From assembly GCA_041394145.1 (NCBI GenBank), contig JAWKIW010000002.1, positions 379,252 to 443,251 of the forward strand: a stretch of DNA of 64,000 nt, given 5' to 3'. This DNA is from Acidimicrobiales bacterium. GTDB lineage: Bacteria > Actinomycetota > Acidimicrobiia > Acidimicrobiales > Acidimicrobilacustridaceae. The first letter of the stretch is position 1. Every line of letters begins with the position of its first letter. The translations under genes and the position numbers were made by a program. Shown one piece after another: positions 1,467 to 35,058 of the stretch. The notes beneath the pieces are model-generated. The model was not told where the DNA came from. It ran no database searches and was given only the letters and a program-made list of their open reading frames with translations.

Positions 1467-2699
1467 ATGTCCGACGTGTCGTTCCAGCTGAACGAGGACC
1501 AGCTCACCCTGCAGAAGTGGGTCCACGACTTCGGCGAAGAGGTCATCCGCCCGGTCGCGGCCGAGTGGGACGAGAAGGAGGAGTTCCCCTGGCCGGTGGT
1601 CGAGGAGGCGGCCAAGGTCGGCCTCTACGGCATGGACTTCATGGCTCAGATCATGATGAACGACCCGACCGGGCTCTCGATGCCGGTCGCCACCGAGGAG
1701 CTGTTCTGGGCCGACGCCGGCATCGGCCTGGCGATCATGGGCTCGGGCCTCGCCGCCGCCGGCATCCTCGGCAACGGCACCCCCGAGCAGATCATGGAGT
1801 GGGTCCCGCAGTGCTACGGCACCCCCGACGACGTGAAGCTCGGGGCGTTCTGCGTGTCCGAGCCCGACGCCGGCTCCGACGTGTCCTCGCTGCGCACCAA
1901 GGCCGTCTACGACGAGGCCAAGGACGAGTGGGTCCTCAACGGCACCAAGGCGTGGATCACCAACGGCGGCATCGCCGACGTCCACGTGGTGGTCGCGGCC
2001 GTCGACCCCGAGCTGAAGGGCCGCGGCCAGGCCAGCTTCGTGGTCCCGGCCAACACGCCCGGCCTGTCGCAGGGCCAGAAGTACTCCAAGCTCGGCATCC
2101 GGGCGTCGCACACCGCCGAGGTCGTGCTCGACGACGTGCGGGTGCCCGGCAGCTGCCTGCTCGGCGGCAAGGAGAAGCTCGACGAGAAGCTGGCCCGTGC
2201 CCGTGAGGCGCTGAACAACCCGGGCAAGGTGTCGAGCGGCAAGCAGCCGGCCATGGCCACCTTCGAGGCCACCCGCCCCGCCGTGGGCGCCCAGGCCATC
2301 GGCGTCGCCCGCGCCGCCTACGAGTACGCCCTGCAGTACGCCACCGAGCGCGTCGCCTTCGGCAAGCCGATCGTGATGCACCAGGGCGTGGGCTTCATGC
2401 TCGCCGACATGGCCACCGAGATCGACGCCGCCCGCCTGCTGGTGTGGCGGGCCGCGTGGATGTCGCGCAACAGCCAGTACAAGAACGCCGAGGGCTCGAT
2501 GTCCAAGCTCAAGGCCGGCCGCGTGGCCGTGTGGGTCACCGAGCGGGCCATCCAGATCCTGGGTGGCTACGGCTACGTCAAGGAGTACCCGGTCGAGCGC
2601 TGGCACCGCGACTCGAAGATCTACGACATCTTCGAGGGCACCGAGCAGATCCAGCAGCTGGTGATCGCCCGGGCCATCTCCGGCCTGCGCGTCGAGTAG
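1467..2699 (+). CDS. acyl-CoA dehydrogenase (FAD-dependent)
   Basis: 410-aa ORF with ACAD hallmarks: N-terminal helical domain, central beta domain, and the C-terminal YDIFEGTEQIQQLVIARAISG motif. The last 79 bp lie inside the attL direct repeat. Confidence 0.9.
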   Translation: MSDVSFQLNEDQLTLQKWVHDFGEEVIRPVAAEWDEKEEFPWPVVEEAAKVGLYGMDFMAQIMMNDPTGLSMPVATEELFWADAGIGLAIMGSGLAAAGILGNGTPEQIMEWVPQCYGTPDDVKLGAFCVSEPDAGSDVSSLRTKAVYDEAKDEWVLNGTKAWITNGGIADVHVVVAAVDPELKGRGQASFVVPANTPGLSQGQKYSKLGIRASHTAEVVLDDVRVPGSCLLGGKEKLDEKLARAREALNNPGKVSSGKQPAMATFEATRPAVGAQAIGVARAAYEYALQYATERVAFGKPIVMHQGVGFMLADMATEIDAARLLVWRAAWMSRNSQYKNAEGSMSKLKAGRVAVWVTERAIQILGGYGYVKEYPVERWHRDSKIYDIFEGTEQIQQLVIARAISGLRVE

Positions 2700-2774
2700 C
2701 TCTGACCTGCGCTTTCTTCTGTCAGAGGCCCGCTCACCCGAGCGGGCCTCTGTCGTTGTCGAACCCGGGATCGG
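2621..2774. repeat. attL: 154-bp direct repeat (copy 1) = ACAD 3' end + terminator hairpin
   Basis: Aligned by eye to 34905-35058 with 7 mismatches in 154. Contains two perfect 39-bp blocks, ctacgacatcttcgagggcaccgagcagatccagcagct and gtgatcgcccgggccatctccggcctgcgcgtcgagtag. Confidence 0.8.
2724..2753 (+). terminator. stem-loop (13-bp perfect stem, 4-nt loop) downstream of ACAD; part of att repeat
   Basis: cagaggcccgctc-accc-gagcgggcctctg. A second copy at 35008-35037 has loop accg. No T-tract, which is common in high-GC actinobacteria. Confidence 0.6.
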
Positions 2775-2778
2775 CGTC

Positions 2779-2799
2779 CATCCCTACTCCCATCCCTAC
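2779..2799. promoter_or_regulatory. tandem CATCCCTAC arm-type repeats adjacent to attL (putative integrase arm-binding sites / int promoter region)
   Basis: catccctac at 2779-2787 and 2791-2799, immediately inside the element and 22 bp upstream of the int ATG. A near-identical pair occurs at 34779-34798 next to attR. Confidence 0.5.
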
Positions 2800-2821
2800 T
2801 TTTCACGTAGGGTCTTCAGCC

Positions 2822-4330
2822 ATGGCAACGATCCGGCAGCGCAAGCGCGGTGTCTGGGAGGTCCGGGTGTTCGCCGGGCGCGACGCCCAGGGCAAGCCCG
2901 TCCAGGTCTCCCGTACGGTGCGCGGCGGCAAGAAGGATGCCGAGCGGGTGGCGAGCGAGCTCGAGCTCAAGCCGAGCCGGCCCGACGCCCGCCGGACCGT
3001 CGCCGAGCTCCTCGACGAGTGGCGCGCGCTCAAGGAGGCCAGCTGGGCCCCCTACACGCGCCGAGACCAGGAGAGCCGGTCGCGATCGATCGCCGCCGAT
3101 CGGATCGGGAAGGTCCCCGTCGCCCGGCTGCAGGTCACCGACGTCGATGCCTGGATCGTCCGCCTCCGCAAGGCCGGGGTCGGCGAGGGATCGATCCGCA
3201 ACCAGTTCCAGTCGCTGCGGTCGGCACTGGCCCAGGCGGTCCGTTGGGGGTGGATCGCACAGAACCCGGCCGCGCTGGCGAGCTATGAGCGAGCGAAGCG
3301 GACCTCGCGCGATGTGATGTCCGCCGAGGACGTCCAGGCCGTGCTCGAGGCCGCCGAGCAGGTCAACGAGATGGCGCCGGTCGCGATCCGACTCGCGGCG
3401 ATCACCGGTGCCCGCCGCGCCGAGCTCGCGGCGCTGCGGTGGACCGACCTCGACGGCTCCGTGCTCCGGGTCGACAGCGCCATCACGGTGGTCCGGGAAG
3501 GCTCGGGTGACGATCGGCGGACCGTCCTGCGTGACGATCCGACCAAGACCGCCGACCGTCGACGGGTCGCGCTCGACCCGTCGACCGTGGCCATGCTCGA
3601 AGTGCTGCGGGCCAGGCGTGAGCCCTACACACCGTGGATGTTCAGCGACACGGAGAAGGCTCCCCGCCCCGACCGGATCGGGTACTGGTGGCAGCGTTGC
3701 CGCGAGCTCGCCGGCATCGACGTCGAGTGGCGCCTGCACGACCTCCGCCACTGGTCGGCGACGTTCGCGCTCAGCGAGGGCTACGACGCCGCCACGGTCG
3801 CACATCGGCTTGGGCACTCGGACCCATCGACGACGCTGCGCGCCTACGCCCACGCCAGGGCGCAACGAGACGCCGACCTGGCGTCGAGCCTCGCCGATGC
3901 CTTGGAGATCCCCCCGAACCCGGGTAGCGCCCGCCACGGCGGCGAGGGCCTGTGGCCGGCCGGCGGGACCGATCCCGGGACCGACTGCGGGACCTCGTCC
4001 GACATCCGTTGGTCCGCCCGCGCCGACCGAGTGCCCTCCGGGTCTTGGAGCATGGCGACGCCCGAAAGGCCCGTTGACCTGGGAACGGGACCTTGCTCGG
4101 GACCGAGTACGGGAGTCCCGCCGAGGTCCCGTTGTCGACGCTGCCTGGTCCGCTCCGACGGCCGTCGGTTGAAGGAGATGCCCCGTTTCGGGACCGGAAG
4201 CGTGTCAGCTGCCACCTCACGGCCACGTGGCACGATCTCGAACCGGCGTTCGGCCCGTTGGCGAGACGGTGATCTGGGACACCTCGGCGGTGTGTTCGGA
4301 GACGGATTGCCGCGACCGGGCGGGCGGTAG
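2822..4330 (+). CDS. int: tyrosine integrase (phage-type, N-terminal AP2-like arm-binding domain); catalytic core ends ~3900, ORF reads on to 4330
   Basis: Starts MATIRQRKRGVWEVRVFAGRDAQGKP. The R...HDLRHWSATFALSEGYDAATVAHRLGHSDPSTTLRAYAH motif contains the catalytic Tyr. The C-terminal ~130 aa are a low-complexity GT[DG]-rich extension. Confidence 0.85.
   Translation: MATIRQRKRGVWEVRVFAGRDAQGKPVQVSRTVRGGKKDAERVASELELKPSRPDARRTVAELLDEWRALKEASWAPYTRRDQESRSRSIAADRIGKVPVARLQVTDVDAWIVRLRKAGVGEGSIRNQFQSLRSALAQAVRWGWIAQNPAALASYERAKRTSRDVMSAEDVQAVLEAAEQVNEMAPVAIRLAAITGARRAELAALRWTDLDGSVLRVDSAITVVREGSGDDRRTVLRDDPTKTADRRRVALDPSTVAMLEVLRARREPYTPWMFSDTEKAPRPDRIGYWWQRCRELAGIDVEWRLHDLRHWSATFALSEGYDAATVAHRLGHSDPSTTLRAYAHARAQRDADLASSLADALEIPPNPGSARHGGEGLWPAGGTDPGTDCGTSSDIRWSARADRVPSGSWSMATPERPVDLGTGPCSGPSTGVPPRSRCRRCLVRSDGRRLKEMPRFGTGSVSAATSRPRGTISNRRSARWRDGDLGHLGGVFGDGLPRPGGR
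3964..4207. repeat. cluster of >=7 CGGGACC/GGTCCCG heptamers in the integrase 3' extension
   Basis: cgggacc is seen at 3964, 3976, 3988, 4086, 4099 and 4199, with the inverted form ggtcccg at 4126. Confidence 0.35.
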
Positions 4331-4504
4331 CCTCCGTCGAAGTGCTACGGCAAGGTTGTCGTCTGGGACGCGGGTTCTGGGACGGTCCCGAGACCGAGGG
4401 CAGGGGAACAAACGCCGTGACGAGTCCGACGACCGCCTCGACCCGATGATTGCGAACGTTCTGGCCCGCCGCTGGCCGCCGCCTACGTCGACGGTGATCC
4501 GGGC

Positions 4505-5779: not shown

Positions 5780-6345
5780 GCCCCATGGTCCCCGTCGGCA
5801 GGACGCCGTGGCGTTCGAGCGGCTACGGGGACTCGCACTCGCGGCGCTGGCGCGTCGTCGAGCGTTCGCGGTGCGTCGTAGGGCTGCCGACATGCCAGCG
5901 ACCGGGGGCGAAGACGATCGTCGGCCCGTCGTGCCGCCTCGTCGTCCTCCCGCTGGGGTGCTGTCGACCACAGACCTGGCAACGGTGCACGGCCGACTGT
6001 GAGCAAGGTCGTCGAGGATGTTCACGTCAGCGACCTCGCTGACGAACTCGCCTGTGTCGGGTTCGGCCGGTCGTGATCGGACTTCCGTGTACCCGTGGCA
6101 CCTGGTACCGGTACGTGAGCTACTGCTCCGTCGTGTTCTCGATCCCCGGATCCGTCGGATTCGGGGCAGACAACCCGGATGCCCTCCTCTACCGGGGCAC
6201 CGAGCCTACACGCCCGACGCATCGTGCGACGGGCTCATGGGCGCGACAAGAACCTCATCGCCGTTGGCCCCCGACTGGTATTTCGGGTTCGCGCTGCACT
6301 GCTGAGGCACCGGGGCAACCGGCATCGGACGCGCGAACGGCCGCG

Positions 6346-6416
6346 CGAAGCGCGGTGCGGCGGAACCGGCGAACTGCCCGTTCTCGGTGCGTGCTTATGC
6401 CCGCGGATCTGGGGCG
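6346..6416. repeat. ~75-bp imperfect direct repeat, copy 2 (upstream of large cargo gene)
   Basis: gaagcgcggtgc ... cccgttc ... ttatgcccgcggatctggggcg. Confidence 0.5.
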
Positions 6417-6777
6417 GGCGCGCGTCGAATCGGGTCGGCCCGACCTACCCGGGAGAGGGAGATCGCTCTGTCGTGTCGGTAGGGTGGAGGTTGGGTGTGT
6501 TCGGTGGGTTCGGGATCGACGGGGTCTCGTGCGGACTGGCCCGAGAAAGAAACGAGGAGAGGCGGGTGGTGGTGGCGACCACGTCTGGGTCGATCGGGGC
6601 CGGGGGGCCGTGCGGCGGCCGCGGTGGGCGCCTTGGTCACGGTTCGAACGGTGTGGGTGTCTTGCCGGCGGGACCCCCGGCTCGACGGGCTGCCTCGGAC
6701 GGTGTGGCGGTGGGCTTGTCGGGTGGTGTGACGGGTCGGTGGCGGGGCGGGCGGGTCCTCGTGGCGGGGGTGGTTTC

Positions 6778-9117
6778 GTGATCCCCGAGGCCGGTGTGCC
6801 GCCACCGTTCCGCCAACGGCCCCGCCCCCAGGATCTGCTTCCGGATTGCTCGACCCAAGACCCGACGGCGCTGCTGGCGTTCTTGGAGGGTCTCGGGCTG
6901 GTCCGCTGCGACGCCGATGCCTGCGGACACCGGGCCGAGACCCTCGAGGCCTACGACGTCAAGAACGGCGTGCCGGTCTACCTGTTTCGTTGCCATCGTT
7001 GCTTCGACGGGCACCTCGACGGCGATGGTGTGCCCCGTCGCTTGTACCACGAGGGAACGCACGCCAGGTTCGACGAGGACGCCTACATGTGGCGCTACGA
7101 CCAGGTCGACCGTCGCTACGGGATGGACGGTTGGGTCTGGCGCTATGAGCGGGGCTGGCACCGCGACCACGAGTGGACGGCCCCGCCGGTCGACGACACC
7201 GACGACGCGGTTGTCACGCTCAGCCTCGATGCTGCGGTGGGCCGGCTCGAACGCTGCGCGGCCCGCGTCAGAGGATGGGCGAGCGCGTATGACCTGGTGC
7301 AGGAGGTCGTCGAGGTCGCCGGCCGCATCGACTTCGAGGAGGCCGGGGTCGGCGCCGTCGAGGTGCTCGCCGGGTTCTTCGAGCGGGCTCAGGAGGCGGT
7401 CGATGCCGAGGGGCTGTTCGACGATCGGGCTCGGATGCTGGGGGTGTGGCAGCGCGAGCGACCCGCGCAGGTGCCCGACGAGGTTGAGGCCGCCTGGATG
7501 CGCTATCGGGCTCGGCGGTGGGACGAGCTCGTCGGCGCCACCGACGACCTCGGCGCTTGGCTGTTCAACTATCTGTCGGCCAACAGCGGGTGGCGGCCGC
7601 CGCGCACGGTGGACCCGGTGGGCCTCCTCAACCAGCTGCGTGGCGCCGATGACGTCCTAGTGGAGAAGGGGTGGGGGGTCATCGACGAGGACTCCGGCAT
7701 GGGGCCGAGCCTGACGTCGTTCGTTCGTCGGCTGCGGGGCGTCTCGACTCGGCCCGGGACCGAGCCGGCCTTCGCGAACCTGCAGGTCTGTGTGGCGTCC
7801 GCGCTGCGCCACGTCGGTGACGTGTCCGACGTCGATGTGCTCGGCATCGTCGAGGCGTGGGGCGACGATCGAGTGGCAGCCGACCGGCTCGCCGTCGAGC
7901 ATCCGACTCCGGCGATCGTCGCGGCGCTGGTGTGCCAGCGACAAGGCGACGTGTGCGGACCGATCCACCTTGGCGAGGTCGCAGCCCGGGCCGCCCGCGA
8001 GCCGTTGCCCGAGGTGTTGTTCGTCGAGCTCGTCGACGCCTGGGCCGAGGCGCGCAATCCGGCGATTGCCACGGCCTTGGGGTCGAACCCGGTGTGCCCC
8101 CCCGCAGCGCAGCGCCGCCTCGCTGTCCACGACAGGGTGGAGGTGGCGATCGGGGTGGCGTCCAACCCGAACCTGGACGCCGTAGCCGCCCGGATCGTGG
8201 CCGACCGGCCTGTCGGATCTGACTTCCGCGAGACGCAAGCTGCCCTGGTGGTGGCCGCCAACCCAGTCTGCCCACCGGACGTCGCCGAGCGGGCGCGAGC
8301 CAACGCGCGGGCCGCGCTCGACGCGGATGCCGACCTGGGCAAGGAACATGCCCCTCGTTGTCGGGAGCCGGCACCCGGGTGGTTCGACCCGCGCGTCCAA
8401 CGCTGTGGCCCCAACTTCCTACTGGACTGGGCATGGGGGTACGCCGCCTATGGCGTCGACGACCCGGAGGTCGTCGTCGCCCTGCACTCCGCCAATTGCC
8501 ACGCCACCCGCGTGGCGCTGCCCCTGTATGCCAATGGCGCCTGCACGCTGGATGAGGCCGTGGCGCTCGCTCGTCTCGATCCGAGCGGCGACAGCTTGCG
8601 GTCTTGGATGCTCGCCGGCGCCGATACCGTCCACGACGTCTTGCGACTTGTCGAGGCTCGAGTCAGCGTGACCCAGGCCGAGCGGGTCGCCACGACGGCC
8701 GGACCGGTCGACGTCGACGAGCTGATCGCCCACCGTGAAGATCTCGACTCCTGGCTGGCCGGGCTTCCCCCTCGTGACACGGACGCCGTGATCGCCCAGA
8801 TCATCAGCCCCTGCTGGTGGTCCCTGGTCGGCGTTCCCGACGGGGCGTGGTCCGGACGTCTCGAGATCATCGCCTCCGCCCCTGAGGCGGTGACCCGGGG
8901 TGCGTCCGGGCAGCGCATCGCCGAAGCGTTCATCGACCGCACTGAAGCCGAGCTGGCCTGCTACCCGGAGTGCAGGACCGTCAGAGACCTTCTCGGGTCC
9001 TTCCGTCGTGCGGTCGTCGCCGCTCGCGCCGCCGTCGACGCCGCCGCCGGTGCCGAGGTCGAAGACACCGTCGTCGCCCCTGCGCTGGCCACCATCCGCG
9101 AGATCCGTCCGTGGTGA
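6778..9117 (+). CDS. large hypothetical protein: N-terminal Cys/His-rich (zinc-ribbon-like) region + C-terminal leucine-rich-repeat-variant (LRV)-like NP...P repeats
   Basis: CDADACGHRAETL...LFRCHRCFDGHLDG at the N-terminus. Repeated ...NPAIATALGSNPVCPPAAQRRLAVHDRVEVAIGVASNPNLDAVAARIVAD...ANPVCPPDVAERA. GTG 6778 was chosen because the upstream part of the 6073 ORF is Gly/Arg junk. Confidence 0.55.
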   Translation: MIPEAGVPPPFRQRPRPQDLLPDCSTQDPTALLAFLEGLGLVRCDADACGHRAETLEAYDVKNGVPVYLFRCHRCFDGHLDGDGVPRRLYHEGTHARFDEDAYMWRYDQVDRRYGMDGWVWRYERGWHRDHEWTAPPVDDTDDAVVTLSLDAAVGRLERCAARVRGWASAYDLVQEVVEVAGRIDFEEAGVGAVEVLAGFFERAQEAVDAEGLFDDRARMLGVWQRERPAQVPDEVEAAWMRYRARRWDELVGATDDLGAWLFNYLSANSGWRPPRTVDPVGLLNQLRGADDVLVEKGWGVIDEDSGMGPSLTSFVRRLRGVSTRPGTEPAFANLQVCVASALRHVGDVSDVDVLGIVEAWGDDRVAADRLAVEHPTPAIVAALVCQRQGDVCGPIHLGEVAARAAREPLPEVLFVELVDAWAEARNPAIATALGSNPVCPPAAQRRLAVHDRVEVAIGVASNPNLDAVAARIVADRPVGSDFRETQAALVVAANPVCPPDVAERARANARAALDADADLGKEHAPRCREPAPGWFDPRVQRCGPNFLLDWAWGYAAYGVDDPEVVVALHSANCHATRVALPLYANGACTLDEAVALARLDPSGDSLRSWMLAGADTVHDVLRLVEARVSVTQAERVATTAGPVDVDELIAHREDLDSWLAGLPPRDTDAVIAQIISPCWWSLVGVPDGAWSGRLEIIASAPEAVTRGASGQRIAEAFIDRTEAELACYPECRTVRDLLGSFRRAVVAARAAVDAAAGAEVEDTVVAPALATIREIRPW

Positions 9118-9224
9118 GTGTGGCACGCCATCAGCAGCGATGGTCTCGCCGGTGAAGGTCGCCGTGGAGAGGAGCGACCACCAACCGCCGTCGAACGTCG
9201 GGCCGCCGCGGGGACGCCCCTAGG

Positions 9225-10919
9225 GTGGCTGCGGTGGTCGGCGGGCGAGCAGTACGGGGTCGGTGTCTCGACGACGCCGCCGAAGACGGCCTGTGGGCCG
9301 AGGCCGGATTCACGGCCGCCGAGGCCCGCCGCTGGACCCGGCTGTACCGCGAATGCACCGACGAGCCTTTCCGGCGCCGGGATCCGGTTGCCAGCGTCGT
9401 CGAGGCCGCCGCTGTCACGGTGAGCGGGCTGCTGCCGACGGGGTGGACCGGGGCGGAGGTCCTCGACGTCGCCGAGCGGCACCAGGTCGTGGGAGAGGTC
9501 CTGCCCGCTGTGGTGCAGATGCTGCCAGACCCGTCACCGGCGGGGTTCGCCGCCGTCGAGGCGGCGGCCGACATCACGGGGATGCCGCTGCTCCACCGGC
9601 TGTGGACGGCGGCTCGGCACCCCGGTCGCGTCGACCACGACGAGCTGGTGGAGGCCATGGCGTGGGCGGCGAGGGCGGTGGCGCTGGGCACCACCCAGGT
9701 GTTGGAGCTGTCGGGGCTGCGGCCGGCCACCTGGGCCGGGTTCCTGGCGACGGCGTCGCCGCCCCCGACGCTGCTCGAGCACCGGCTGTGGCACTACGGG
9801 TGGCGGTGCATGAACGAGATGACCGCCCCCTACCCGTTCACCGGTGCCCTCGGCGCACGGGTCGCGTCGGTCGTCGTCGACCGCAGGCCCTACCGCTCCA
9901 ACGATCAGCGGCGGACGTGGATCTCGCCCGCCGCCGGTGAGGTCTGGTCGGTCGCCCGGCAGGCGCACCTCGACCACGGCGCTCACGTACCGGCGACGCT
10001 CGCTCCCGGCTGGTTGTGGAGCCGCTGTGACCCCCTCCTGTTGGCGCGGCGACCGGTGCCCGACGCCACGCAGATCGAGCGGCTGACCCGGGTGCAGCTG
10101 CGCGACGCGCTCGACGACCTCGGGCTGCCGGTCCCCGAGTGGTCCGACGAGCTGCTCACCGCGGCGGTGGCGTGGGGTACCAGGTACGCCGCCGATCTCG
10201 TCGCCGCCCAGGAGCTGACCTGGGATGTCCCCGGATCACCGCACACGTCCTTGCTCGTGGTCGAGCCAGCTGACTTCGACGAAGGTGAGCTGCTCGCCCG
10301 CGGGTTCCGTCCGTTCGTGTCCGGCTCGAGGACCGACGACGTACTCGGTGTGCTGCGTACCGCCGGGGTACAAGCGGCTCGAACGCGAGGTGACGAGCCG
10401 GTGGGGTGGGCACGAGCTGGTCGCGACGGACGCCGGACGTGGCGCTACGTCCTCGACGTAGCCGCAGACATGGTCGTAGCGCCCGACGACGATCTGGTCG
10501 CCCGATGGCGGCGCGTGGTGGGGACCGTCGCCGCCGAACTCGACAGCCGCCGCGAGCAGCCCCTACGGCCCTGGCCGCTCCAAGGGACCTCGAGGCGCTG
10601 TCGGCAGCCACCGCGCCCGTGGCGGGCATCGACACCGGCTCGACCGACCGGCACGGTCGAACCGCTTAAACGTCTCCCAGCGACGACGTGTGGCGTCGCC
10701 GCGGTCAACGTCTCGGTCTCGGTGGCGCCGACATCGACGGTGAACGACCTGCACCTCCGCACCCTGGTGCGTGTCGTACCGATGGAGAGCCCGAACCGCC
10801 TCGGTCACGACGAACTGGTGTTTGGTGCCCAGACCGGACGCCGGTTGGCCTCCGACAGACGAGGCGGCCCAGGCTCGACAAGCCCTCGACGAGGTCTTTA
10901 CCGCCCGTCGACGCCCTAA
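9225..10919 (+). CDS. hypothetical protein (family duplicated downstream); true 3' end probably ~10.7 kb
   Basis: Contains LEHRLWHYGWRC, EWSDELLTAAVAWGTRYAADLVAAQ and GWARAGRDGRRTWRYVLDVAADMVVAP blocks. These recur in shifted frames at 10.85-12.25 kb. Confidence 0.5.
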   Translation: MAAVVGGRAVRGRCLDDAAEDGLWAEAGFTAAEARRWTRLYRECTDEPFRRRDPVASVVEAAAVTVSGLLPTGWTGAEVLDVAERHQVVGEVLPAVVQMLPDPSPAGFAAVEAAADITGMPLLHRLWTAARHPGRVDHDELVEAMAWAARAVALGTTQVLELSGLRPATWAGFLATASPPPTLLEHRLWHYGWRCMNEMTAPYPFTGALGARVASVVVDRRPYRSNDQRRTWISPAAGEVWSVARQAHLDHGAHVPATLAPGWLWSRCDPLLLARRPVPDATQIERLTRVQLRDALDDLGLPVPEWSDELLTAAVAWGTRYAADLVAAQELTWDVPGSPHTSLLVVEPADFDEGELLARGFRPFVSGSRTDDVLGVLRTAGVQAARTRGDEPVGWARAGRDGRRTWRYVLDVAADMVVAPDDDLVARWRRVVGTVAAELDSRREQPLRPWPLQGTSRRCRQPPRPWRASTPARPTGTVEPLKRLPATTCGVAAVNVSVSVAPTSTVNDLHLRTLVRVVPMESPNRLGHDELVFGAQTGRRLASDRRGGPGSTSPRRGLYRPSTP

Positions 10920-23719: not shown

Positions 23720-23815
23720 CGATCCGTAGGCAGCGAACGAGTCCGAGCGCCGCCATCGAGCGCGGCAGAACGCCGGCAGGGCGCAACGTGAGAGCTCGCG
23801 TGCGTGCGCCGCGGA

Positions 23816-25832: not shown

Positions 25833-27014
25833 GTGGGGGCGGTGGCGCTCGACGACACATACGCGCCGGTGGACAGCGTCGATCGGGAGGCGGCACGCAC
25901 CGCGGTGAGGGACCTGACGGTTGCGATGATCGACCACTTCGTGGACGGTTCTGCCAACGTTGCGTGCTCGGGGCTGGGGCTGTGGAACGTCGTTGCGGTG
26001 CTGGCGTCGGGAGCCGACGGTGCGACCGCCGACGAGTTGGCGTCGCTGATCGGGGTGAGCGCGGACCGCGCCGCCGCCGCGGTAACGGGCCTCGACACCG
26101 ACGTGGACGCCGTCGACGGGGTGGCCCACGCTCTGGGGATGTGGAGCCAGGTGCCCACCTACCGGGCCTGGCGCGAGGAGCTGCCGACGATCGGGGTCGC
26201 CCACCTCGGCGACGACACCGACCTGGCCGCCTGGGTCGCCGACCACACCGGCGGCGCCATCCCCGGCTTCGACCTCACGATCCCATCCGACGCCCTGCTG
26301 GTGCTCGCCGACCTGATCCGGGTGAAGGTCACCTGGGCCGACGCCTTCCCCAAGGACAGCACCCGCCACCGGGCCTTCCGGGCTCCCGGCGGCGACGCGG
26401 ACGTGTCGACCATGACCAAGACCGACGCCACCGACTGCCTGGCGGTGGTGGGACGCACGCTCACCTACGACGTGCCCACCACCGCCGGAGAGGGCCCGGC
26501 GACGGTGATGCGCTTCGCCATCGGTGCCGCCGATGCCTCACCCGCCGAGGTCATCGGCGACATCATCGCCCCGCACCAGCGACGGCGACCCCTGTCGGCG
26601 TGCACCTGGTCGGACCTGCCCGACGACGCCACCACCGACAGCGATCTCCCGCCGGGCTCCTTCGGCCGGTTCACGGTGTTCCTCCCCAAGTTCGCCACGA
26701 CGACCAGCCTCGACCTGCTCAGCCTCCTCGACGTCCTCGGTGCTCGCCGCTGCCAGACCGACCAGGCTGGGTTCACGCGCATGTCCCCCGAGCCACTCAT
26801 GGTCGAGCAAGCGCTGCAGGACAGTGAGGTGAAGCTCGACGAGGCCGGCGTCGAGGCCACGGTCGTCACCCGCTCGTCCATGGTCACCACCGGTAGGTAC
26901 AAGAGTCCGGACCTCGAGGTCTTCTTCGACCGACCCTTCGGCTACGCCCTGGTCACCGAAGATACCGGCCTGCCCCTCTTCGCTGGTTGGGTCGCCGACC
27001 CCACCGTCACCTGA
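25833..27014 (+). CDS. serpin (serine protease inhibitor family)
   Basis: Hinge/RCL EAGVEATVVTRSSMVTTGRY and FDRPFGYALV, plus N-terminal FVDGSANVACSGLGLWNVVAVLASGADGATADELASL: serpin shutter and breach motifs. Confidence 0.75.
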   Translation: MGAVALDDTYAPVDSVDREAARTAVRDLTVAMIDHFVDGSANVACSGLGLWNVVAVLASGADGATADELASLIGVSADRAAAAVTGLDTDVDAVDGVAHALGMWSQVPTYRAWREELPTIGVAHLGDDTDLAAWVADHTGGAIPGFDLTIPSDALLVLADLIRVKVTWADAFPKDSTRHRAFRAPGGDADVSTMTKTDATDCLAVVGRTLTYDVPTTAGEGPATVMRFAIGAADASPAEVIGDIIAPHQRRRPLSACTWSDLPDDATTDSDLPPGSFGRFTVFLPKFATTTSLDLLSLLDVLGARRCQTDQAGFTRMSPEPLMVEQALQDSEVKLDEAGVEATVVTRSSMVTTGRYKSPDLEVFFDRPFGYALVTEDTGLPLFAGWVADPTVT

Positions 27015-27164: not shown

Positions 27165-28493
27165 TCAACCGGATGAGGTGTCGTCGTGGTCGCTCGGCCC
27201 GTTGCCGTGAGGGAGCTCGTCAACGACGGCGGGTCGAAGGTTGTTCTCCTTGATGAAGCGCAGTCGCTGTTGCGCTCGTTGTCGCGCCATGACGCGGTCT
27301 TGGCCGTGTTCGACGGCGGCAACCCCTGCAGAGAAGGTGACCGGCCGTCCCGCTATCAGGCGTCGATGGTGGTGGTCGTCGAGAAGAGCGCGCAGCCGCC
27401 GGGTGAGCTCGTGCTCGTCGAGGTTGGGGACAGCCACGACGAACTCGTCGCCGCCCCAGCGGCCGACCTGACCTTCGGGGTCGACGTCGCCCAGCAGGCG
27501 CGCCACGGTGCACAGGGCCTGGTCGCCGGCGTCGTAGTTGTCCGCCGTGGCGTTGAAGCCGCGCAGGTCGTCGAGATCGACGAACGCCACCGCGAACGGG
27601 ACAGGCAAAGCGTTGAGCGCCCGTTCGGTCCCGACGCGGTTCAACACGCCGGTGAGCCCATCGTGGTCGGCGCGTTCCTCCGCGTCGGACAGTCGACGCC
27701 TGAGATCCCGGATCTCGGCCTGCGTGCCCCGCACCGAGACCCCGGCGGTGGCTTCGAGGTGCTCGAGGCGCTGCACCAGCGGCACGAGGCGCTCCCAACG
27801 GGCGTCACTTCGGGCGGCCCACAAAGCGTTGGCATGGGTCGGTGACGGCCCCGCCCGCGGCGTGACCTGCAGCTCGATCGCCACGCAACGGTCCCCGAGG
27901 TCGACGTCGCCACCGCAACCGGCACGGATGCGGCGAGCCAACTGGGTGACGCCGTCGGCGGGCAGCCGGTCGACGAGCACGGCCAGCTCGCTGGGGCCCA
28001 CCCGACCGACGGTGACCGCGTCGGCGACGGTGGCATGCAGGCGGCGGGCCAGCTCGTCGAGGACACGGTCACCCACCTCGCGGCCCACATCCCGGTTGAG
28101 GTGGCGCAACCCGACCAGGTTCACCAGCGCCACCCCGTACGACAGCCGGGTCCCGGCCGATCGGGCCCGCCCGTCGACCTCGGCCAGCCGCTGGAGGAAC
28201 ACGACCTCGGAATCCCACGGCTCATCGCCCCGCGCCACTCCGACAGTATTGCCCTCGCTCCAAGCCCGCACCGAGGCGACCGACGAAGTGTCAACGGCTG
28301 CTCCCCGAACGCCGGCTATGTGCGCGACAACTACGGCGAGCTCCACGTCTGGTTCGCACGGTGGTGCGTCGTAGCTGTCCGAGACGTGAACCTGGCCCGG
28401 GACTCGGTGGCCTCGTGGTCCGTAGCGTTCCCGACGGCGACCTCCCTGACATCGCCGACTGCTGGCCGACGTGGCCGACCAGGCGCAACGCAC
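27165..28493 (-). CDS. diguanylate cyclase: degenerate N-terminal GGDEF-like domain + coiled coil + canonical GGDEF domain
   Basis: C-terminal domain DGLTGVLNRVGTERAL...VAFVDLDDLRGFNATADNYDAGDQAL...GRWGGDEFVVAV. N-terminal region SYGVALVNLVGLRHLNRDVGREVGDRVLDELARRL lacks GGDEF. GTG start 12 bp after upstream stop. Confidence 0.75.
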   Translation of the reverse strand: MRCAWSATSASSRRCQGGRRRERYGPRGHRVPGQVHVSDSYDAPPCEPDVELAVVVAHIAGVRGAAVDTSSVASVRAWSEGNTVGVARGDEPWDSEVVFLQRLAEVDGRARSAGTRLSYGVALVNLVGLRHLNRDVGREVGDRVLDELARRLHATVADAVTVGRVGPSELAVLVDRLPADGVTQLARRIRAGCGGDVDLGDRCVAIELQVTPRAGPSPTHANALWAARSDARWERLVPLVQRLEHLEATAGVSVRGTQAEIRDLRRRLSDAEERADHDGLTGVLNRVGTERALNALPVPFAVAFVDLDDLRGFNATADNYDAGDQALCTVARLLGDVDPEGQVGRWGGDEFVVAVPNLDEHELTRRLRALLDDHHHRRLIAGRPVTFSAGVAAVEHGQDRVMARQRAQQRLRFIKENNLRPAVVDELPHGNGPSDHDDTSSG

Positions 28494-30490: not shown

Positions 30491-30727
30491 ATGGACATCG
30501 ACTCCCTGCCCGACATGCTCCGGGTCGACGAGGCTGCGGCGGTGCTGCGGATCAGTCGCAGCCGGGCCTATGAGGAGGTCGCGGCGTTCCAGCGCACGGG
30601 CGGTGTCGAGGGCTTAGCGTCGATCCGCATCGGTCGCACGCTGCGGGTCCTCGAAGCGGGCGCTGCTGGCGTGGATCGAGGCGCAGCTTGGCGGCCCGAG
30701 CGCTGCGTGACCGTCGCCGGCTCGTGA
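30491..30727 (+). CDS. xis: excisionase / MerR-like HTH DNA-binding protein (Xis family); indel near 30645 (canonical reading ends 30710)
   Basis: MDIDSLPDMLRVDEAAAVLRISRSRAYEEVAAFQRTGGVEGLASIRIGRTLRV. In the +1 frame PSKRALLAWIEAQLGGPSAA-stop is the canonical excisionase tail. Confidence 0.7.
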   Translation: MDIDSLPDMLRVDEAAAVLRISRSRAYEEVAAFQRTGGVEGLASIRIGRTLRVLEAGAAGVDRGAAWRPERCVTVAGS

Positions 30728-31615: not shown

Positions 31616-34154
31616 GTGGAGGTTCGTGTCGTGTTGAACATCGGGAAGCTGGCGGCGGGCAAGGCCGGCTACTACGTGTCGCTGGCTGCTGGGGTCGAGG
31701 ACTACTACACTGACACGGCGAACCTCCGCCGAGCCCGACGGCGCCGAGCTGCTCGGCTTGGCCATTGCCGGCACCGTGACGGCCGACGATCTGGTCACGG
31801 TGCTGGGTGGGCGGGCGCCGGGGACTGGCGAGCGGCTGACGGGCTCGGGTGGCGGGGTTCGATCTGGACGTTCCGGGCGCCGAAGTCGGTGTCGTTGCTG
31901 TACGGGTTGGGCGAGGCCGACACGGTCGCCGGCGTGGTGGTCGATCGCGCGACGAGGCGGCTGTGGACGCCGCGGTCGGCTACCTCGAGCGGGCCGCCTG
32001 GTGCGACCCGCCGCCGGGTCGACGGGACGATCACCCGGTTCGCGGGGAGGGGTCTGCTGCGGCCGGGTTCGGCACCAGACGTCGCGGCGGGGACCCGACC
32101 CTGCACACCCACGTGCTGGTGGCGAACATGACCTGCACACCCGGCGGCCGGTGGGGGCGCTGGACGGGCGACGGGTCTACGAGCACGCCTTGATCGCCGG
32201 CTACTTCTACCAGGCCCAGCTGCGGGCCGAGCTGATCCGCCGCCTCGGCGTCGAGTGGGACTGCGGTCAACGGCTGTGCCGACGTCGCCGGTGTCGACGA
32301 CGGGGTGATCGCCGCGCCTTCCGGCGGCGCGCCGAGATCCTCGAACGTCTGACCAGCGCGGCCAGCGGTCGGCCCGGCGCAGGCGGCCACGCTCGACACC
32401 CGCCGCGCCAAGGACTACCGCCACGGCCGGGTCGACGCCACCGAGCTGCGGAGCCGCGGGCCGAACGCGGCGACCGGGTCGGGTTCGGACCGGCACAGGT
32501 GGCCGGGTTGTCGACGCCGGCGTCCGACGAACCCTCCTCCCTGGCCCAGGTCGGCGACATCTTCCGCGATCTGGCCGGCCCCGACGGGCTCACCAAGCAC
32601 AAGAGCACCTTCACCCGCCCCGACGTGCTGCGAGCGTTCGCGTCGGCGCTGCCCGACGGCGCCGACGTCGCCGCCATCGAAGACCTCGCCAGCTTCTACC
32701 TGTTCGCCACCGAACCGGTCGCAGTCGGTGACGTGCACGGCGCCGAGGCGTGGACGACCCAGGACCTCCTCGACACCGAACGACGGGTGCTCGCCGGCAT
32801 CGCCGCCCGCCGACACGCCGGCACCGGCATCGCCGACCGGGCCGAGGTGGCCGCCGCCATCGGTGCCCGGCCCACCATCGGTGACGAGCAGGCCGACATG
32901 GTCGCCGACCTGTGCCTGGCCGGACACGGCGTCGACGTCGTGGTGGGTGCCGCCGGCACCGGCAAGACCTTCGCCCTCGACACCGCCCGCGTCGCTTGGG
33001 AGCGCTCCGGGTACCGGGTCCACGGCGCCGCCCTGTCGGCGCGGGCCGCCGCCGAGCTGCAGGCCGGCTCGGGCATCGAGTCGACCACGATCGCCCGGCT
33101 GCTCGGCCAGATCGACGCCGGCCGGACCCGACTCGATACCCGGGCGGTCGTGGTCGTCGACGAAGCCGGCATGGTCGGCACCCGGACCCTGGACCGGCTC
33201 CACCAGGCGACCTCGGCCGCCGGCGCCAAGCTGGTGCTCGTCGGTGACCCCGCCCAGCTCCCCGAGATCGACGCCGGCGGCGCCTTCGCGGCGCTCACCG
33301 AACGCCTCGACCCGATCCGCCTCGTCGACAACCGCCGCCAGGTCCACCACTGGGAACGCGGCGCCCTCGACGACCTGCGCTCCGGCCGGATCGCCGCCGC
33401 CGTGGCCACCTACCAGCAACGGCAGCGCATCGTGGTCGTCGCCGACCCCGACGAGCTGCACACCCGCGTCGTCCAAGACTGGTTCGCCTCCCACCAGGCA
33501 GGGGACCAGGCGCTCATGGTCGCCGCGCACCGCGCCGAGGTCCGAGACCTCAACCAACGAGCACGCCAGCTGCTCGACGACGCCGGCCTCCTCGGCCCGA
33601 CCCGCCTACGGGTCGGCGGCCACGAGTTCGCCGAAGGCGACCGGGTCATGGCCGTCGGCCGCAACCACTACGACCTCGACATCCTCAACGGCGACCTCGG
33701 CACCATCACCGGCATCGGACCCAACGGCGACATCACCTTCCACGCCGACCGAACGGCCGAGCCACGCACGATGCCCGCCGCCCGCATCGAAGCAGGCTTC
33801 CTCGACCACGGCTACGCCCGCACCAACCACAAGACCCAAGGCGCTACGGTCGACCGCACCTTCATCCTCGGCGACGACGGCGACCTCGACCGCCAAGCCG
33901 CCTACGCCGCCCTGTCCCGGGGTCGCATCGAGAACCGCCTCTACGTGCCGGACCCCGACGACGACCTCCTCCTGGACACACCAGCTGCCTCCCCGATCCA
34001 CGAGCACGTCACCTACGAGCTGTCCCGCGACCGATCCCAACGCCTCGCCACCGACCACCTCGACGCCCAGGCCGGCCGCGCCGACGACCTGGACGCCCAC
34101 CTGCCCCACGCCCACCCCGATCCCGAACCCACCGTCGACAACGACCTCTGGTGA
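31616..34154 (+). CDS. MobF-family conjugative relaxase (TrwC/TraA N-terminal relaxase + RecD-like helicase); relaxase domain split over 3 frames
   Basis: MEVRVVLNIGKLAAGKAGYYVSLAAGVEDYY (YY/DYY motif), WTFRAPKSVSLLYG, DPTLHTHVLVANMT (HxH motif), WRALDGRRVYEHALIAGYFYQAQLRAEL, helicase motifs GAAGTGKTF, VVVDEAGMV, LVGDPAQLP. Confidence 0.85.
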
Positions 34155-34184: not shown

Positions 34185-34440
34185 TTGCGTCGGCGGGGCT
34201 GGTGGAGCCGCCTGGTACCGTGCCGGTGTGGCGCTGCGCCGAGACGACCTGACCCTGAGCAGCTGGAGCTCCAGCGGGCGCTGGATCGATCGTGGACCGA
34301 GGCCCAGCGGGGGCTCGCCGACCCGGAGTTCCGGGCCTACCTCGAGGACTCGATGCGCCGGCTCGATGCCAGGGAGCCGGCCCCGATGCTCACCCGCGAG
34401 GAGTTCCTGGCGCAGACCAGGATCCTCGACCAGCAGTGCC
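34185..34440 (+). CDS. putative antitoxin (ParD/Phd-like C-terminal motif); start/stop unclear
   Basis: ...ELQRALDRSWTEAQRGLADPEFRAYLEDSMRRLDAREPAPMLTREEFLAQTRIL. Duplicated outside the island at 35097-35313. Confidence 0.3.
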
Positions 34441-34448
34441 CCTCCGAG
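34232..34448. repeat. ~215-bp direct repeat, element-internal copy (antitoxin-like region)
   Basis: gaccctgagcagctggagctccagcgggcgctggatcgatcgtgg... about 92% identical to 35097-35313. Confidence 0.6.
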
Positions 34449-34711
34449 ACGTCGAGGAGTTCCACCGCTGGATCGAGCGGGAGTCCCTGTCGATCGCGGC
34501 CCAGCGAGTCGCCCGCCACTCTCGCCGAGGTCGGCGACGAGGCCTGGCGATCACCGAGTGTCCCGGTCGAAGCCCTTTCGAACCAACCGGAGTACGAAGT
34601 GCGCGAGAGGTCGCCCTTCCTGCCGAGGGCGACGACCGGCCGGTCCGGCTCTGGTACCGCCACATCTACGCCACGGACGCTGTCGATGTCATCGCCGTCA
34701 CCAACCGGTGA
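34437..34711 (+). CDS. putative ParE/RelE-superfamily toxin (GTG start overlapping antitoxin frame)
   Basis: VPLRDVEEFHRWIERESLSIAAQRVARH...RPVRLWYRHIYATDAVDVIAVTNR-stop has ParE-like motif spacing. Low confidence. Confidence 0.3.
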
Positions 34712-34778
34712 CCGCGCCGTCGAACCGGATCGAGCGTCTCCCGATCGGCGGCGATCGATCGCTCGCAGGCCCCCGATC

Positions 34779-34798
34779 CATCCCTACTCCATCCCTAC
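34779..34798. promoter_or_regulatory. tandem CATCCCTAC arm-type repeats adjacent to attR
   Basis: catccctac at 34779-34787 and 34790-34798, 106 bp inside attR. Mirrors the attL-proximal pair. Confidence 0.5.
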
Positions 34799-34904
34799 AA
34801 CTGCACGACACAGGCCCACATCGGCTGGTACGGGCCGACACAAACCTCGGGAAAACCGCAGGTCAACGGCACAATCGCGCACTGGCTGGACAAGCAGGTC
34901 AGAC

Positions 34905-35058
34905 CTACGACATCTTCGAGGGCACCGAGCAGATCCAGCAGCTCGTGATCGCCCGGGCCATCTCCGGCCTGCGCGTCGAGTAGTCCTGACCTGCGCGTTC
35001 TTCTGTCAGAGGCCCGCTCACCGGAGCGGGCCTCTGGCGTTGTCGGACCCGGGATCGG
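34905..35058. repeat. attR: 154-bp direct repeat (copy 2), displaced ACAD 3' fragment + hairpin
   Basis: Encodes ...YDIFEGTEQIQQLVIARAISGLRVE-stop with no upstream gene body. Hairpin at 35008-35037. Confidence 0.8.

What the first reader, a model, noticed from the sequence alone, without database searches (positions are those of the whole stretch)
2621..35058. A ~32-kb integrative mobilizable element inserted into the 3' end of an acyl-CoA dehydrogenase gene
The last 79 bp of the ACAD ORF plus its terminator hairpin (2621-2774) are repeated at 34905-35058 with 147 of 154 bases identical. The second copy has no gene body in front of it. A tyrosine integrase with an arm-binding N-terminus sits 48 bp inside the left repeat. 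An excisionase and a MobF relaxase-helicase sit toward the right repeat.

This is the classic layout of a site-specific integrated element that regenerates the 3' end of its target gene. Here the target is a protein-coding gene rather than a tRNA or tmRNA, which is unusual.

No VirB4, VirD4 or FtsK-like transfer ATPase is visible, so it is either mobilizable in trans or a decayed ICE/AICE.
Basis: partly seen in the sequence, partly recalled or inferred. Interest (0 to 1): 0.8.

Follow-up and report, generated by a model that had tools for sequence, protein, structure and literature searches.

The report
Mobile island inserted in ACAD gene
A 32-kb mobile genomic island has inserted by site-specific recombination into the end of an acyl-CoA dehydrogenase gene of an Acidimicrobiales bacterium and rebuilt that gene end; the mechanism is textbook, but it belongs to a large family I found no description of, whose every sampled member uses this same gene as its landing site.

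Summary
The repeat is real: 2617-2774 and 34901-35058, 158 nt, 95% identical, 32,284 bp apart. The first copy is the 3' end of an intact ACAD gene plus a hairpin.

A tyrosine integrase starts 47 nt inside attL. Integrases 54-79% identical to it lie directly downstream of the orthologous ACAD gene in all five distinct relatives examined, with different cargo. Close relatives have empty sites.

An 8-mer, ATCCCTAC, occurs only four times in the window: twice between attL and int, and twice about 110 nt before attR. The same layout recurs in a complete 10.5-kb relative (L007) and in ten metagenome contigs. The shortest shared core, GACATCTTCGARGGCACCGAG, encodes D-I-F-E-G-T-E, by homology the ACAD catalytic-Glu motif.

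No VirB4, VirD4 or FtsK-type ATPase and no phage protein family was found. The MobF relaxase-helicase is present, but as assembled its relaxase domain carries 13 frameshifts in 750 nt. This may be an assembly error.

Landing in the 3' end of a housekeeping protein gene is normal for such elements, not unusual. Verdict: a new member of a known kind, of moderate interest.

The parts
1467..2699 (+). Target gene: acyl-CoA dehydrogenase, 410 aa, intact after integration
   Evidence: Pfam Acyl-CoA_dh_N, _M, _1 and _2. Orthologues 82-95% identical, 409-411 aa, in Iamia, Rhabdothermincola, Aquihabitans and many Acidimicrobiales MAGs.
2617..2774 (+). attL repeat: last 83 nt of ACAD, stop codon and hairpin
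   Evidence: 158-nt direct repeat, 95% identical. Hairpin fold.
2625..2645 (+). Candidate core site in attL, GACATCTTCGAGGGCACCGAG (codons D-I-F-E-G-T-E)
   Evidence: Only two matches in the window, even with 3 mismatches allowed. It is the shortest segment shared by all attR-type sites, including L022 and L024. It is present in all empty sites. The crossover point itself was not determined.
2780..2799 (+). P' arm: two direct ATCCCTAC repeats (2780-2787, 2792-2799); an inverted GTAGGG follows at 2808-2813
   Evidence: The 8-mer occurs 4 times in 64 kb, all at the element ends, against 0.44 expected. The same pair lies upstream of int in L001 and L003-L007, with a variant in L029.
2822..4330 (+). 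Tyrosine integrase. The real protein is 368 aa (2822-3925). The ORF reads on to 4330 because one G is missing from a G-run
   Evidence: Pfam PF00589. 853 homologues, almost all 355-375 aa. R198/K242/H306/R309/H332/Y342 are invariant in the alignment. The otherwise identical Logan contig L018 has GGGG-TAG where the window has GGG-TAG.
5876..24700 (.). Nested segment bounded by ~125-bp imperfect inverted repeats (5876-6000 and 24570-24700), possibly a transposon-like insert
   Evidence: Inverted repeat I2, 40 nt, 90% complementary. The extended alignment is about 80% identical over about 125 nt.
6778..9117 (+). Large cargo ORF of 779 aa (open frame from 6073), no known family
   Evidence: No hit in Pfam, NCBIfam, PADLOC or PHROGs. 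Among 1.84 billion representatives only itself and 3 marginal hits.
9225..10919 (+). Cargo ORF of 564 aa, no known family
12672..15005 (+). IS21-family remnant: IstA and IstB fragments, out of frame
   Evidence: NCBIfam transpos_IS21 7e-27 and IS21_help_AAA 1e-24, both partial and below cut-off. Pfam IstB_IS21.
20608..22930 (+). Two tandem tyrosine recombinases: 20608-21651, and 21750 to about 22930 with a frameshift near 22.4 kb
   Evidence: Pfam Phage_integrase and SAM-like domains. No third recombinase in 22.56-23.81 kb.
25009..25601 (+). PIN-domain toxin (25167-25601) with a small upstream ORF (25009-25170)
   Evidence: Pfam PIN 1.9e-9. Homologous PIN genes occur in L028 and L029, the latter inside a sister island.
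25833..27014 (+). Serpin (cargo)
   Evidence: Pfam Serpin 5e-32.
27165..28493 (-). GGDEF diguanylate cyclase (cargo)
   Evidence: Pfam GGDEF 2.4e-27.
30491..30727 (+). Small HTH protein, candidate excisionase (recombination directionality factor)
   Evidence: Sub-threshold HTH_23, HTH_28 and HTH_17 matches. 49-55% identical to HTH_17 proteins in sister elements L004-L006, L025 and L026.
31631..34154 (+). MobF (TrwC-type) relaxase-helicase. The helicase part (from about 32470) is intact. The relaxase domain has 13 frameshifts between 31712 and 32455
   Evidence: Pfam AAA_30 3e-52 and TrwC 3.6e-5. Intact homologues are about 850 aa and carry PF08751. tblastn pieces alternate between frames. Frameshift-aware alignment.
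34214..34475 (+). Internal copy of the ~260-bp stretch that also lies just outside attR (35079-35340)
   Evidence: Direct repeats D2, D6 and D8, spacing 865-866. Alignment. No protein family found.
34779..34807 (+). P arm: CATCCCTACTCCATCCCTACAACTGCACG, with two ATCCCTAC repeats, about 110 nt before the core
   Evidence: Unique in the window. Nearly invariant in L007 and ten metagenome contigs, with the same spacing to the core.
34901..35058 (+). attR repeat: displaced ACAD 3' end and hairpin, with no gene body in front. Candidate core at 34909-34929

Best explanation
This is a 32.3-kb integrative genomic island of the integrative-mobilizable-element (IME) type, in an Acidimicrobiales chromosome.

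Shown:
- It lies between two copies of the ACAD 3' end.
- It carries its own replacement for the last 27 codons, the stop codon and a hairpin, so the ACAD ORF stays intact at attL. The displaced original end sits at attR.
- A lambda-like tyrosine integrase is encoded next to attL.
- Paired ATCCCTAC repeats lie on both sides of the core: the P arm about 110 nt to its left, and the P' arm 163 nt from the start of the att repeat (144 nt after the core).
- The integrase family, its arm repeats and its target gene are conserved across many Acidimicrobiia, while the cargo differs.
- Close relatives have unoccupied sites.

Inferred:
- Int binds the arm repeats with its N-terminal domain. It exchanges strands in or beside the core GACATCTTCGARGGCACCGAG, which encodes D-I-F-E-G-T-E, by homology the ACAD catalytic-Glu motif. 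This is a sequence held constant by selection on the enzyme, much as tRNA genes are for other elements.
- Excision to a circle needs Int plus the small HTH protein (30491-30727).
- The circle is then nicked by the element's MobF relaxase-helicase and moved through a mating pore and coupling protein supplied by another conjugative element, because the island has none.

Cargo: a serpin, a GGDEF cyclase, a PIN toxin module, two large ORFs with no family, and a nested inverted-repeat-bounded segment with two more tyrosine recombinases and an IS21 remnant.

Whether this particular copy is still mobile is open.
For: - Repeat and gene end.
- Integrase with all catalytic residues.
- ATCCCTAC occurs 4 times in 64 kb, only at the two ends, against 0.44 expected. 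The same pairs occur in the 6 occupied loci among the 14 held at that point and in none of the 7 empty-site loci.
- ACAD-then-int adjacency in L003 (79% identical integrase), L004-L006 (73%), L007 (72%) and L029 (54%).
- L007 has attL at 9785-9868 and attR at 20336-20420, the repeat starts at the same ACAD position as in the window, and its P arm is about 110 nt before attR.
- Empty sites: L008-L010 (ACAD 93% identical), L011-L012 (Rhabdothermincola sediminis) and L013-L014. L013 shares the downstream DUF2252 gene with window 41558-42961.
- Ten metagenome contigs have the P-arm-plus-core architecture.
- L004 and L005 are 99.56% identical over 13.6 kb including ACAD and int, then carry unrelated cargo.
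- The element is 70.3% G+C against 72.4% and 73.1% in the flanks.
- Relaxase. Related relaxases sit in other Acidimicrobiales islands with no transfer-apparatus Pfam family among the called genes within 10 kb.
- No transfer ATPase: the only genuine Walker A motifs, in six frames, are the relaxase helicase and the IstB fragment.
- No PHROG hit in ten ORFs.
Against: - As assembled, the relaxase domain has 13 frameshifts and the integrase has lost its stop codon.
- The island's coding-phase signal is fragmented: median run 120 nt against 510 nt in the flank. This copy may therefore be inactive, or the assembly may be poor here.
- No oriT-like inverted repeat was found upstream of the relaxase.
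- No attP junction of the strict pattern was found in the metagenome collection. The one attP-like contig, L021, has a broken integrase and is more likely a tandem junction.
- The HTH protein is below Pfam thresholds.
- No helper conjugative element is known for this host.
- The crossover position could not be located from the mismatch pattern.
Confidence: 0.85

Rival explanations
1. This copy is a fossil. It is a once-mobile island, or a decayed ICE that lost its mating-pore genes, is now fixed in the chromosome, and is decaying by indels and IS insertion. This accepts the integration history but denies present mobility.
For: 13 frameshifts in the relaxase domain. Integrase stop codon lost. 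IS21 and the second recombinase are out of frame. Coding phase is fragmented over 4-20 kb and 28-32.5 kb. No transfer ATPase.
Against: The frameshift-corrected relaxase is as conserved as the intact helicase part, has no stop codons, and all 13 events fall in 750 nt with none in the next 1.7 kb. That pattern fits local consensus error better than slow decay. L018, an independent short-read contig of the same element (1 substitution in 1467 nt), has the normal integrase stop. Both att sites and all four arm repeats are intact. Relaxase relatives in other genomes also lack nearby T4SS genes, so loss of a T4SS need not be assumed.
Confidence: 0.3
2. The locus is a composite made by accretion. The stretch just right of attR (35059 to about 37200: hairpin, the 260-bp copy and the DUF222/HNH gene) is the remnant of an older sister element. 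The present island then integrated into that element's attL.
For: The att identity runs 75 nt past the stop codon, through a hairpin of the type seen at attL of sister elements (L001, L003, L021) but not after ACAD in any empty site. The identity ends 5 nt before the point where the P' arm begins at attL. 35079-35340 is a 92% copy of 34214-34475 inside the island. L021 shows that element-att-element junctions with a decayed integrase exist in nature.
Against: There is no third att core or arm repeat anywhere in the window, even with 3 mismatches allowed. The empty sites available are at least 7% diverged in ACAD protein, so the native downstream sequence of this species is unknown. CTGACCTGCG after the stop codon is also seen on the chromosomal side of attR in L019 and L020.
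Confidence: 0.25
3. It is a prophage or phage satellite that uses the ACAD gene as attB.
For: The nearest annotated integrases are those of mycobacteriophages, Actinomyces and Thermus phages. Phage-style arm-type sites are present.
Against: Those integrases are at most 30% identical. No PHROG family matched ten tested ORFs. No Pfam capsid, portal or terminase hit. A conjugative relaxase is present. The attR pattern is absent from IMG/VR viral contigs.
Confidence: 0.03
4. The repeat is a segmental duplication or assembly artefact unrelated to the integrase.
For: None beyond the bare existence of a repeat.
Against: The same repeat boundary, arm repeats and integrase position recur in independent genomes and metagenomes. 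Empty sites exist. L001 and L018, from other samples, reproduce the left junction.
Confidence: 0.01

Closest known systems
Integrative mobilizable elements that target the 3' end of housekeeping protein genes, such as SGI1 (trmE), MGIVchUSA1 (yicC), ATE-1 of the actinobacterium Trueperella pyogenes (guaA) and streptococcal IMEs in rpmG, rpsI and rplL. All are listed in the review PMC5704250.
   Same: A single tyrosine integrase at one end. [quoted passage not shown] Toxin-antitoxin and other cargo. Own relaxase but no mating pore or coupling protein. Tandem accretion is known for these elements.
   Different: The target gene (acyl-CoA dehydrogenase) and the host class (Acidimicrobiia) are not in that list. 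The relaxase is MobF, and the 2017 review states that no known canonical IME had a MobF or MobH relaxase. Nothing here has been tested experimentally.
Lambdoid phage 21 and the e14 element of E. coli, which integrate into icd and carry a substitute 3' end of that gene (from my own knowledge, not checked here).
   Same: The target is the 3' end of a metabolic enzyme gene, and the element supplies a near-identical replacement end.
   Different: Those are phage or phage-derived and have an unrelated integrase lineage. Here there are no phage genes and a conjugative relaxase is present.
Lambda and mycobacteriophage L5-type tyrosine integrases with arm-type sites (mechanism from established knowledge).
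   Same: About 365 aa with a conserved basic N-terminus. Repeated arm-type sequences lie on both sides of the core in attP, and the R-K-H-R-H-Y catalytic set is present.
   Different: Only 27-30% identical to any annotated phage or plasmid integrase. Binding of the arm repeats is inferred from position and conservation only.
Actinomycete ICEs (AICEs such as pSAM2 and SLP1) and T4SS-type ICEs.
   Same: Site-specific integration in an actinobacterial chromosome, with int (and xis) at one end.
   Different: AICEs need an FtsK-like TraB and a replication initiator, and usually target tRNA genes. T4SS ICEs need VirB4 and a coupling protein. None of these was found.

Membership tests
Integrative mobilizable element (IME) | Site-specific integrase encoded at one end of the element | tested here: met
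   int at 2822-3925, 47 nt from attL. Pfam PF00589. Catalytic residues invariant.
Integrative mobilizable element (IME) | [quoted passage not shown] | tested here: met
   158-nt repeat, 95% identical. The ACAD ORF is intact at attL.
Integrative mobilizable element (IME) | Unoccupied target site in related genomes | tested here: met
   L008-L014: orthologous ACAD with the same upstream synteny and no integrase. No same-species empty site was available.
Integrative mobilizable element (IME) | Own relaxase and/or oriT | tested here: inconclusive
   A MobF relaxase-helicase gene is present, but its relaxase domain has 13 frameshifts as assembled. No oriT-like repeat was found.
Integrative mobilizable element (IME) | No complete mating-pore system and no coupling protein | tested here: met
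   No VirB4, VirD4, TraG or FtsK hit in Pfam, NCBIfam or PADLOC on the ORFs. The six-frame Walker A scan finds only the relaxase helicase and IstB. Caveat: frameshift-rich regions could hide non-ATPase components.
Integrative mobilizable element (IME) | Demonstrated excision and mobilization by a helper | not testable with these tools
   The strict attP pattern gave 0 hits in the metagenome collection. Raw reads are not available here.
T4SS-type ICE | VirB4-family ATPase, coupling protein and mating-pore genes | tested here: not met
Actinomycete ICE (AICE) | FtsK/SpoIIIE-like TraB translocase and a replication initiator | tested here: not met
   No FtsK_SpoIIIE or Rep family hit and no further Walker A ORF.
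Tyrosine recombinase with arm-type sites (lambda Int type) | Catalytic R-K-H-R-H/W-Y set | tested here: met
   R198 (or R199), K242, H306, R309, H332 and Y342 are invariant across seven family members.
Tyrosine recombinase with arm-type sites (lambda Int type) | Repeated arm-type sites on both sides of the core in attP, and an N-terminal arm-binding domain | tested here: inconclusive
   Paired ATCCCTAC repeats lie at both ends and are conserved across the family. No Pfam arm-binding domain was called. Binding was not tested.
MobF (TrwC) relaxase | N-terminal relaxase domain with the tyrosine motif and the histidine triad, fused to an SF1 helicase | tested here: inconclusive
   The helicase is clear (AAA_30, 3e-52). 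TrwC scores 23.9 bits against a cut-off of 25 in the ORF as read. After frameshift correction the N-terminus ...AGYYVSLAAGVEDYYT and GDPTLHTHVLVAN are recovered. Intact homologues carry PF08751.
Prophage | Capsid, portal, terminase or tail genes | tested here: not met
   No PHROG hit in ten ORFs. No such Pfam hits.
Recombinase-in-trio (RIT) element (for the nested segment) | Three adjacent tyrosine recombinase genes between terminal inverted repeats | tested here: not met
   Only two recombinases were found, and none in any + frame of 22.56-23.81 kb. Inverted repeats exist but lie 18.8 kb apart.

The most novel reading that the evidence does not exclude
The ACAD-targeting integrases define a very large, Acidimicrobiia-wide family of islands that all use the codons of the enzyme's catalytic-Glu motif as a universal landing pad. 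This one spot would then be the main exchange point for defence, toxin and other cargo in a class where no conjugative system has been characterised. The relaxase-only members would be moved by a helper apparatus of unknown kind. The inverted-repeat-bounded 18.8-kb insert, with two recombinases and two large ORFs lacking detectable homologues, could be a new type of transposon.
Probability: 0.12. Interest if true: 0.6.

Novelty: new member of a known kind. Interest (0 to 1): 0.35.

Why it matters
Acidimicrobiia are abundant in soils, waters and wastewater, but they are mostly uncultured and their mobile elements are almost undescribed. The paper searches found no description of an ACAD-targeting element or of integrative elements in this class.

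The integrase, its arm-repeat signature and the fixed target give a simple, searchable rule for delimiting genomic islands in their genomes and MAGs: P arm, 110 nt, core; core, 144 nt, P' arm, int. The rule also helps explain contig breaks at this locus.

The choice of the catalytic-motif codons as the core is a neat example of an element exploiting a sequence its host cannot change. The mechanism itself is standard.

Tried and rejected
- The strict attP pattern (P arm, core, P' arm) found nothing in metagenome contigs. The attR pattern found nothing in viral contigs.
- Locating the crossover from attL/attR mismatches failed. The window and L007 patterns fit a crossover on either side of the mismatches.
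- The idea that the 260-bp repeat plus the next ORF is a toxin-antitoxin pair has no support: there are no Pfam hits.
- The RIT-trio idea for the tandem recombinases was rejected, because no third recombinase was found.
- Linking the 13 relaxase frameshifts to homopolymer runs was inconclusive.
- No oriT-like inverted repeat was found near the relaxase.
It was done only for 22.56-23.81 kb, with stops masked.
- Looking up the source contig through the relaxase protein failed: the protein is not on record.
- The large ORF 6778-9117 has no homologues beyond itself among 1.84 billion representatives, so no alignment-based structure prediction was attempted.

Full report
**Observation.** The repeat exists as described. 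Positions 2617-2774 and 34901-35058 form a 158-nt direct repeat at 95% identity, 32,284 bp apart.

The left copy is the last 83 nt of a 410-aa acyl-CoA dehydrogenase (ACAD) ORF at 1467-2699, which has all four ACAD Pfam domains, plus 75 nt downstream. That downstream stretch holds a 13-bp G+C-rich hairpin. The single coding mismatch is synonymous. Nothing upstream of the right copy resembles ACAD. The window has no tRNA or tmRNA gene. It is about 71% G+C. The closest named ACADs are from Rhabdothermincola, Iamia and Aquihabitans, so the host is an Acidimicrobiales bacterium.

**Anatomy of the island.** Gene content comes from Pfam, NCBIfam, PADLOC and PHROGs searches:
- Tyrosine integrase, 2822 onward.
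- Two large ORFs with no family, 6073/6778-9117 and 9225-10919. The first has no homologue but itself among 1.84 billion representatives.
- An out-of-frame IS21 remnant, 12.7-15 kb.
- Two tandem tyrosine recombinases, 20.6-22.9 kb.
- A PIN toxin, a serpin and a GGDEF cyclase.
- A small HTH protein, 30491-30727.
- A MobF relaxase-helicase, 31631-34154.

Just outside attR lie a DUF222/HNH gene and then ordinary chromosomal genes: an F420H2-dependent reductase, an alcohol dehydrogenase, a diacylglycerol kinase and DUF2252. The island has 70.3% G+C against 72.4% and 73.1% in the flanks.

**The integrase family always sits at this gene.** The integrase has 853 homologues at E ≤ 1e-10, mostly from Acidimicrobiia MAGs and almost all 355-375 aa long. 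I looked at the genomic context of five of them:
- L003, 79% identical integrase.
- L004, L005 and L006, 73%.
- L007, 72%.
- L029, 54%.
- L018, the near-identical copy of the window's own integrase.

In the four more distant relatives the integrase lies directly downstream of the orthologous ACAD gene, in the same orientation. The upstream CysS-MFS-ACAD neighbourhood, or part of it, recurs in most of them. L001 and L018 are copies of the window's own junction from other samples. Cargo differs completely between relatives: RHS or PA14 giant proteins, an ABC transporter, a type I restriction-modification system. L004 and L005 are 99.56% identical for 13.6 kb across ACAD and int, and then diverge completely.

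**Empty sites.** ACAD orthologues 89-93% identical to the window's are followed directly by unrelated chromosomal genes, with no integrase, in L008-L010, L011-L012 (Rhabdothermincola sediminis) and L013-L014. L013 shares the downstream DUF2252 gene with window 41558-42961. No same-species empty site was found.

**att architecture.** The 8-mer ATCCCTAC occurs exactly four times in the 64-kb window, against 0.44 expected. Two copies lie between attL and int (2780, 2792). Two lie about 110 nt left of the attR repeat (34780, 34791).

Among the 14 loci held at that point, the motif is found in all six occupied ones and in none of the seven empty-site loci. It always forms a pair just upstream of int. 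In L007 a second pair lies about 110 nt before a second copy of the ACAD end. L007 is therefore a complete 10.5-kb sister island. Its repeat starts at the same ACAD nucleotide as the window's.

A pattern made of the P-arm pair, 100-120 nt and the start of the core picked up ten further metagenome contigs. Their alignment shows three conserved blocks:
- CATCCCTACTCCATCCCTACAACTGCACG
- GCAGGTCARCGGCA
- CAGASCTWCGACATCTTCGARGGCACCGAG

In two contigs, L022 and L024, similarity to ACAD stops right after GGCACCGAG. The shortest shared segment is therefore the 21-mer that encodes D-I-F-E-G-T-E. By homology with medium-chain ACAD this motif holds the catalytic glutamate; that is established knowledge, not tested here. 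The 21-mer is present in every empty site and matches only the two att sites in the window. I take it as the likely core. The exact crossover could not be placed.

**Mobility functions.** In six-frame translation, the only genuine Walker A motifs in the island are the relaxase helicase and the IstB fragment. No VirB4, VirD4/TraG, FtsK/TraB or Rep family was hit. No phage family was hit either. The island therefore cannot transfer itself by any known route.

Intact relatives of the relaxase are about 850 aa and carry a TrwC domain. Two of them (61-62% identical) sit in other Acidimicrobiales islands beside a large serine recombinase. No transfer-apparatus Pfam family appears among the called genes within 10 kb. 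Relaxase-only islands thus seem common in this order.

The HTH protein is below Pfam thresholds. It is nevertheless 49-55% identical to HTH_17 proteins in sister elements, which fits a role as an excision factor.

**State of this copy.** A frameshift-aware alignment to an intact homologue finds 13 frameshifts between 31712 and 32455, and none in the remaining 1.7 kb. The corrected translation is well conserved and free of stop codons, for example GDPTLHTHVLVAN.

The integrase ORF runs 134 codons too far because one G is missing from a G-run. The short-read contig L018, which differs from the window by a single substitution over 1467 nt, has the G and a normal stop codon. L001, from another assembly, has 38 substitutions but no indels over the first 3920 nt. 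Coding-phase runs are much shorter inside the island than outside it.

Dense, clustered indels with few substitutions fit local consensus error better than old decay. Such error is plausible where strains differ or reads map ambiguously. I cannot settle this without the reads, so whether this copy can still move is open.

**Right boundary and the second repeat.** The conserved P-arm-to-core spacing fixes the right end at attR, so 35079-35340 lies outside the element. That stretch is a 92% copy of 34214-34475, which lies inside, between the relaxase and the P arm. It has no family assignment.

The att identity also runs 75 nt past the stop codon. It passes through a hairpin of the type carried by sister elements but absent from all empty sites, and it ends 5 nt before the point where the P' arm begins at attL. 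One reading is accretion: the present island entered the attL of an older sister element, of which only a stump remains. L021 shows such an element-att-element junction with a broken integrase. Against this reading, there is no third att or arm site in the window, and the native downstream sequence of this species is unknown.

**Comparison with known systems.** The layout matches the definition of an integrative mobilizable element. The review PMC5704250 states that IMEs with one tyrosine recombinase commonly integrate into the 3' end of tRNA genes or of housekeeping protein genes (guaA, rpmG, rpsI, rplL, trmE, yicC), and that the repeat preserves the gene.

Three things are new here: the target gene, the host class, and the relaxase type, since no MobF IME was known in 2017 according to that review. 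The integrase is at most 30% identical to any annotated phage or plasmid integrase. Paper searches found no description of an ACAD-targeting element or of integrative elements in Acidimicrobiia.

**Verdict.** This is a new member of a known kind: an IME-type island from a large, previously undescribed, ACAD-targeting family. Present-day mobility is unproven. Interest is moderate (0.35).

Noticed in passing
window 5876-6000 and 24570-24700: Imperfect inverted repeats of about 125 bp (40-nt core 90% complementary) bracket an 18.8-kb segment inside the island. The segment holds the two ORFs with no family, the IS21 remnant and the two tandem tyrosine recombinases. It may be a nested transposon-like element. 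It is not a canonical RIT, because only two recombinases are present.
   Followed up: partly
window 31712-32455: There are 13 single- or double-base frameshifts in 750 nt of the relaxase domain and none in the next 1.7 kb of the same gene. The corrected protein is well conserved. This suggests local assembly or polishing error rather than decay.
   Followed up: partly
window ~3925 and ~3990 versus L018: Two single-base deletions relative to an otherwise identical short-read contig. The first removes the integrase stop codon and adds a 134-aa junk tail.
   Followed up: yes
window 34214-34475 and 35079-35340: A 260-bp stretch at 92% identity is present both inside the island (after the relaxase) and just outside attR (before the DUF222/HNH gene). 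It encodes a small conserved-looking ORF with no family. Its origin is unexplained; it may be the remnant of an older sister element.
   Followed up: partly
window 35444-37177: A DUF222/HNH-type gene lies immediately right of attR. A 49%-identical copy sits at a different position (7 kb upstream of ACAD) in L003, so the gene is itself probably mobile.
   Followed up: partly
L004 versus L005 (divergence at L004:13618): Two MAG contigs are 99.56% identical across ACAD, the integrase and 3.6 kb of island, then carry unrelated cargo (an RHS toxin versus an ABC transporter and a DDE transposase). This shows cargo swapping behind an identical integration module.
   Followed up: partly
L021:1705-2250: This metagenome contig has P arm, core, ACAD 3' end, hairpin, a degenerate P' arm and a frameshifted, truncated integrase start. 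It is an attP-like or tandem junction.
   Followed up: partly
window 6778-9117: A 779-aa ORF with good codon bias has no homologue other than itself among 1.84 billion representative proteins. The stored copy (P0361) is 704 aa and matches only residues 1-690, which suggests another indel difference between assemblies.
   Followed up: partly
window 43132-47108: A radical SAM/SPASM enzyme with a SEC-C motif lies next to a LuxR-type AAA regulator and a small ORF (46833-47108). This may be a peptide-modification cluster in the chromosomal flank.
   Followed up: no
L029:9957-10000: In the 54%-identical relative the arm repeats (GTCCCTAC, TATCCCTAC, inverted GTAGGG) follow the ACAD stop codon directly, with no hairpin spacer. 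The cargo there is a type I restriction-modification system plus a PIN toxin.
   Followed up: partly
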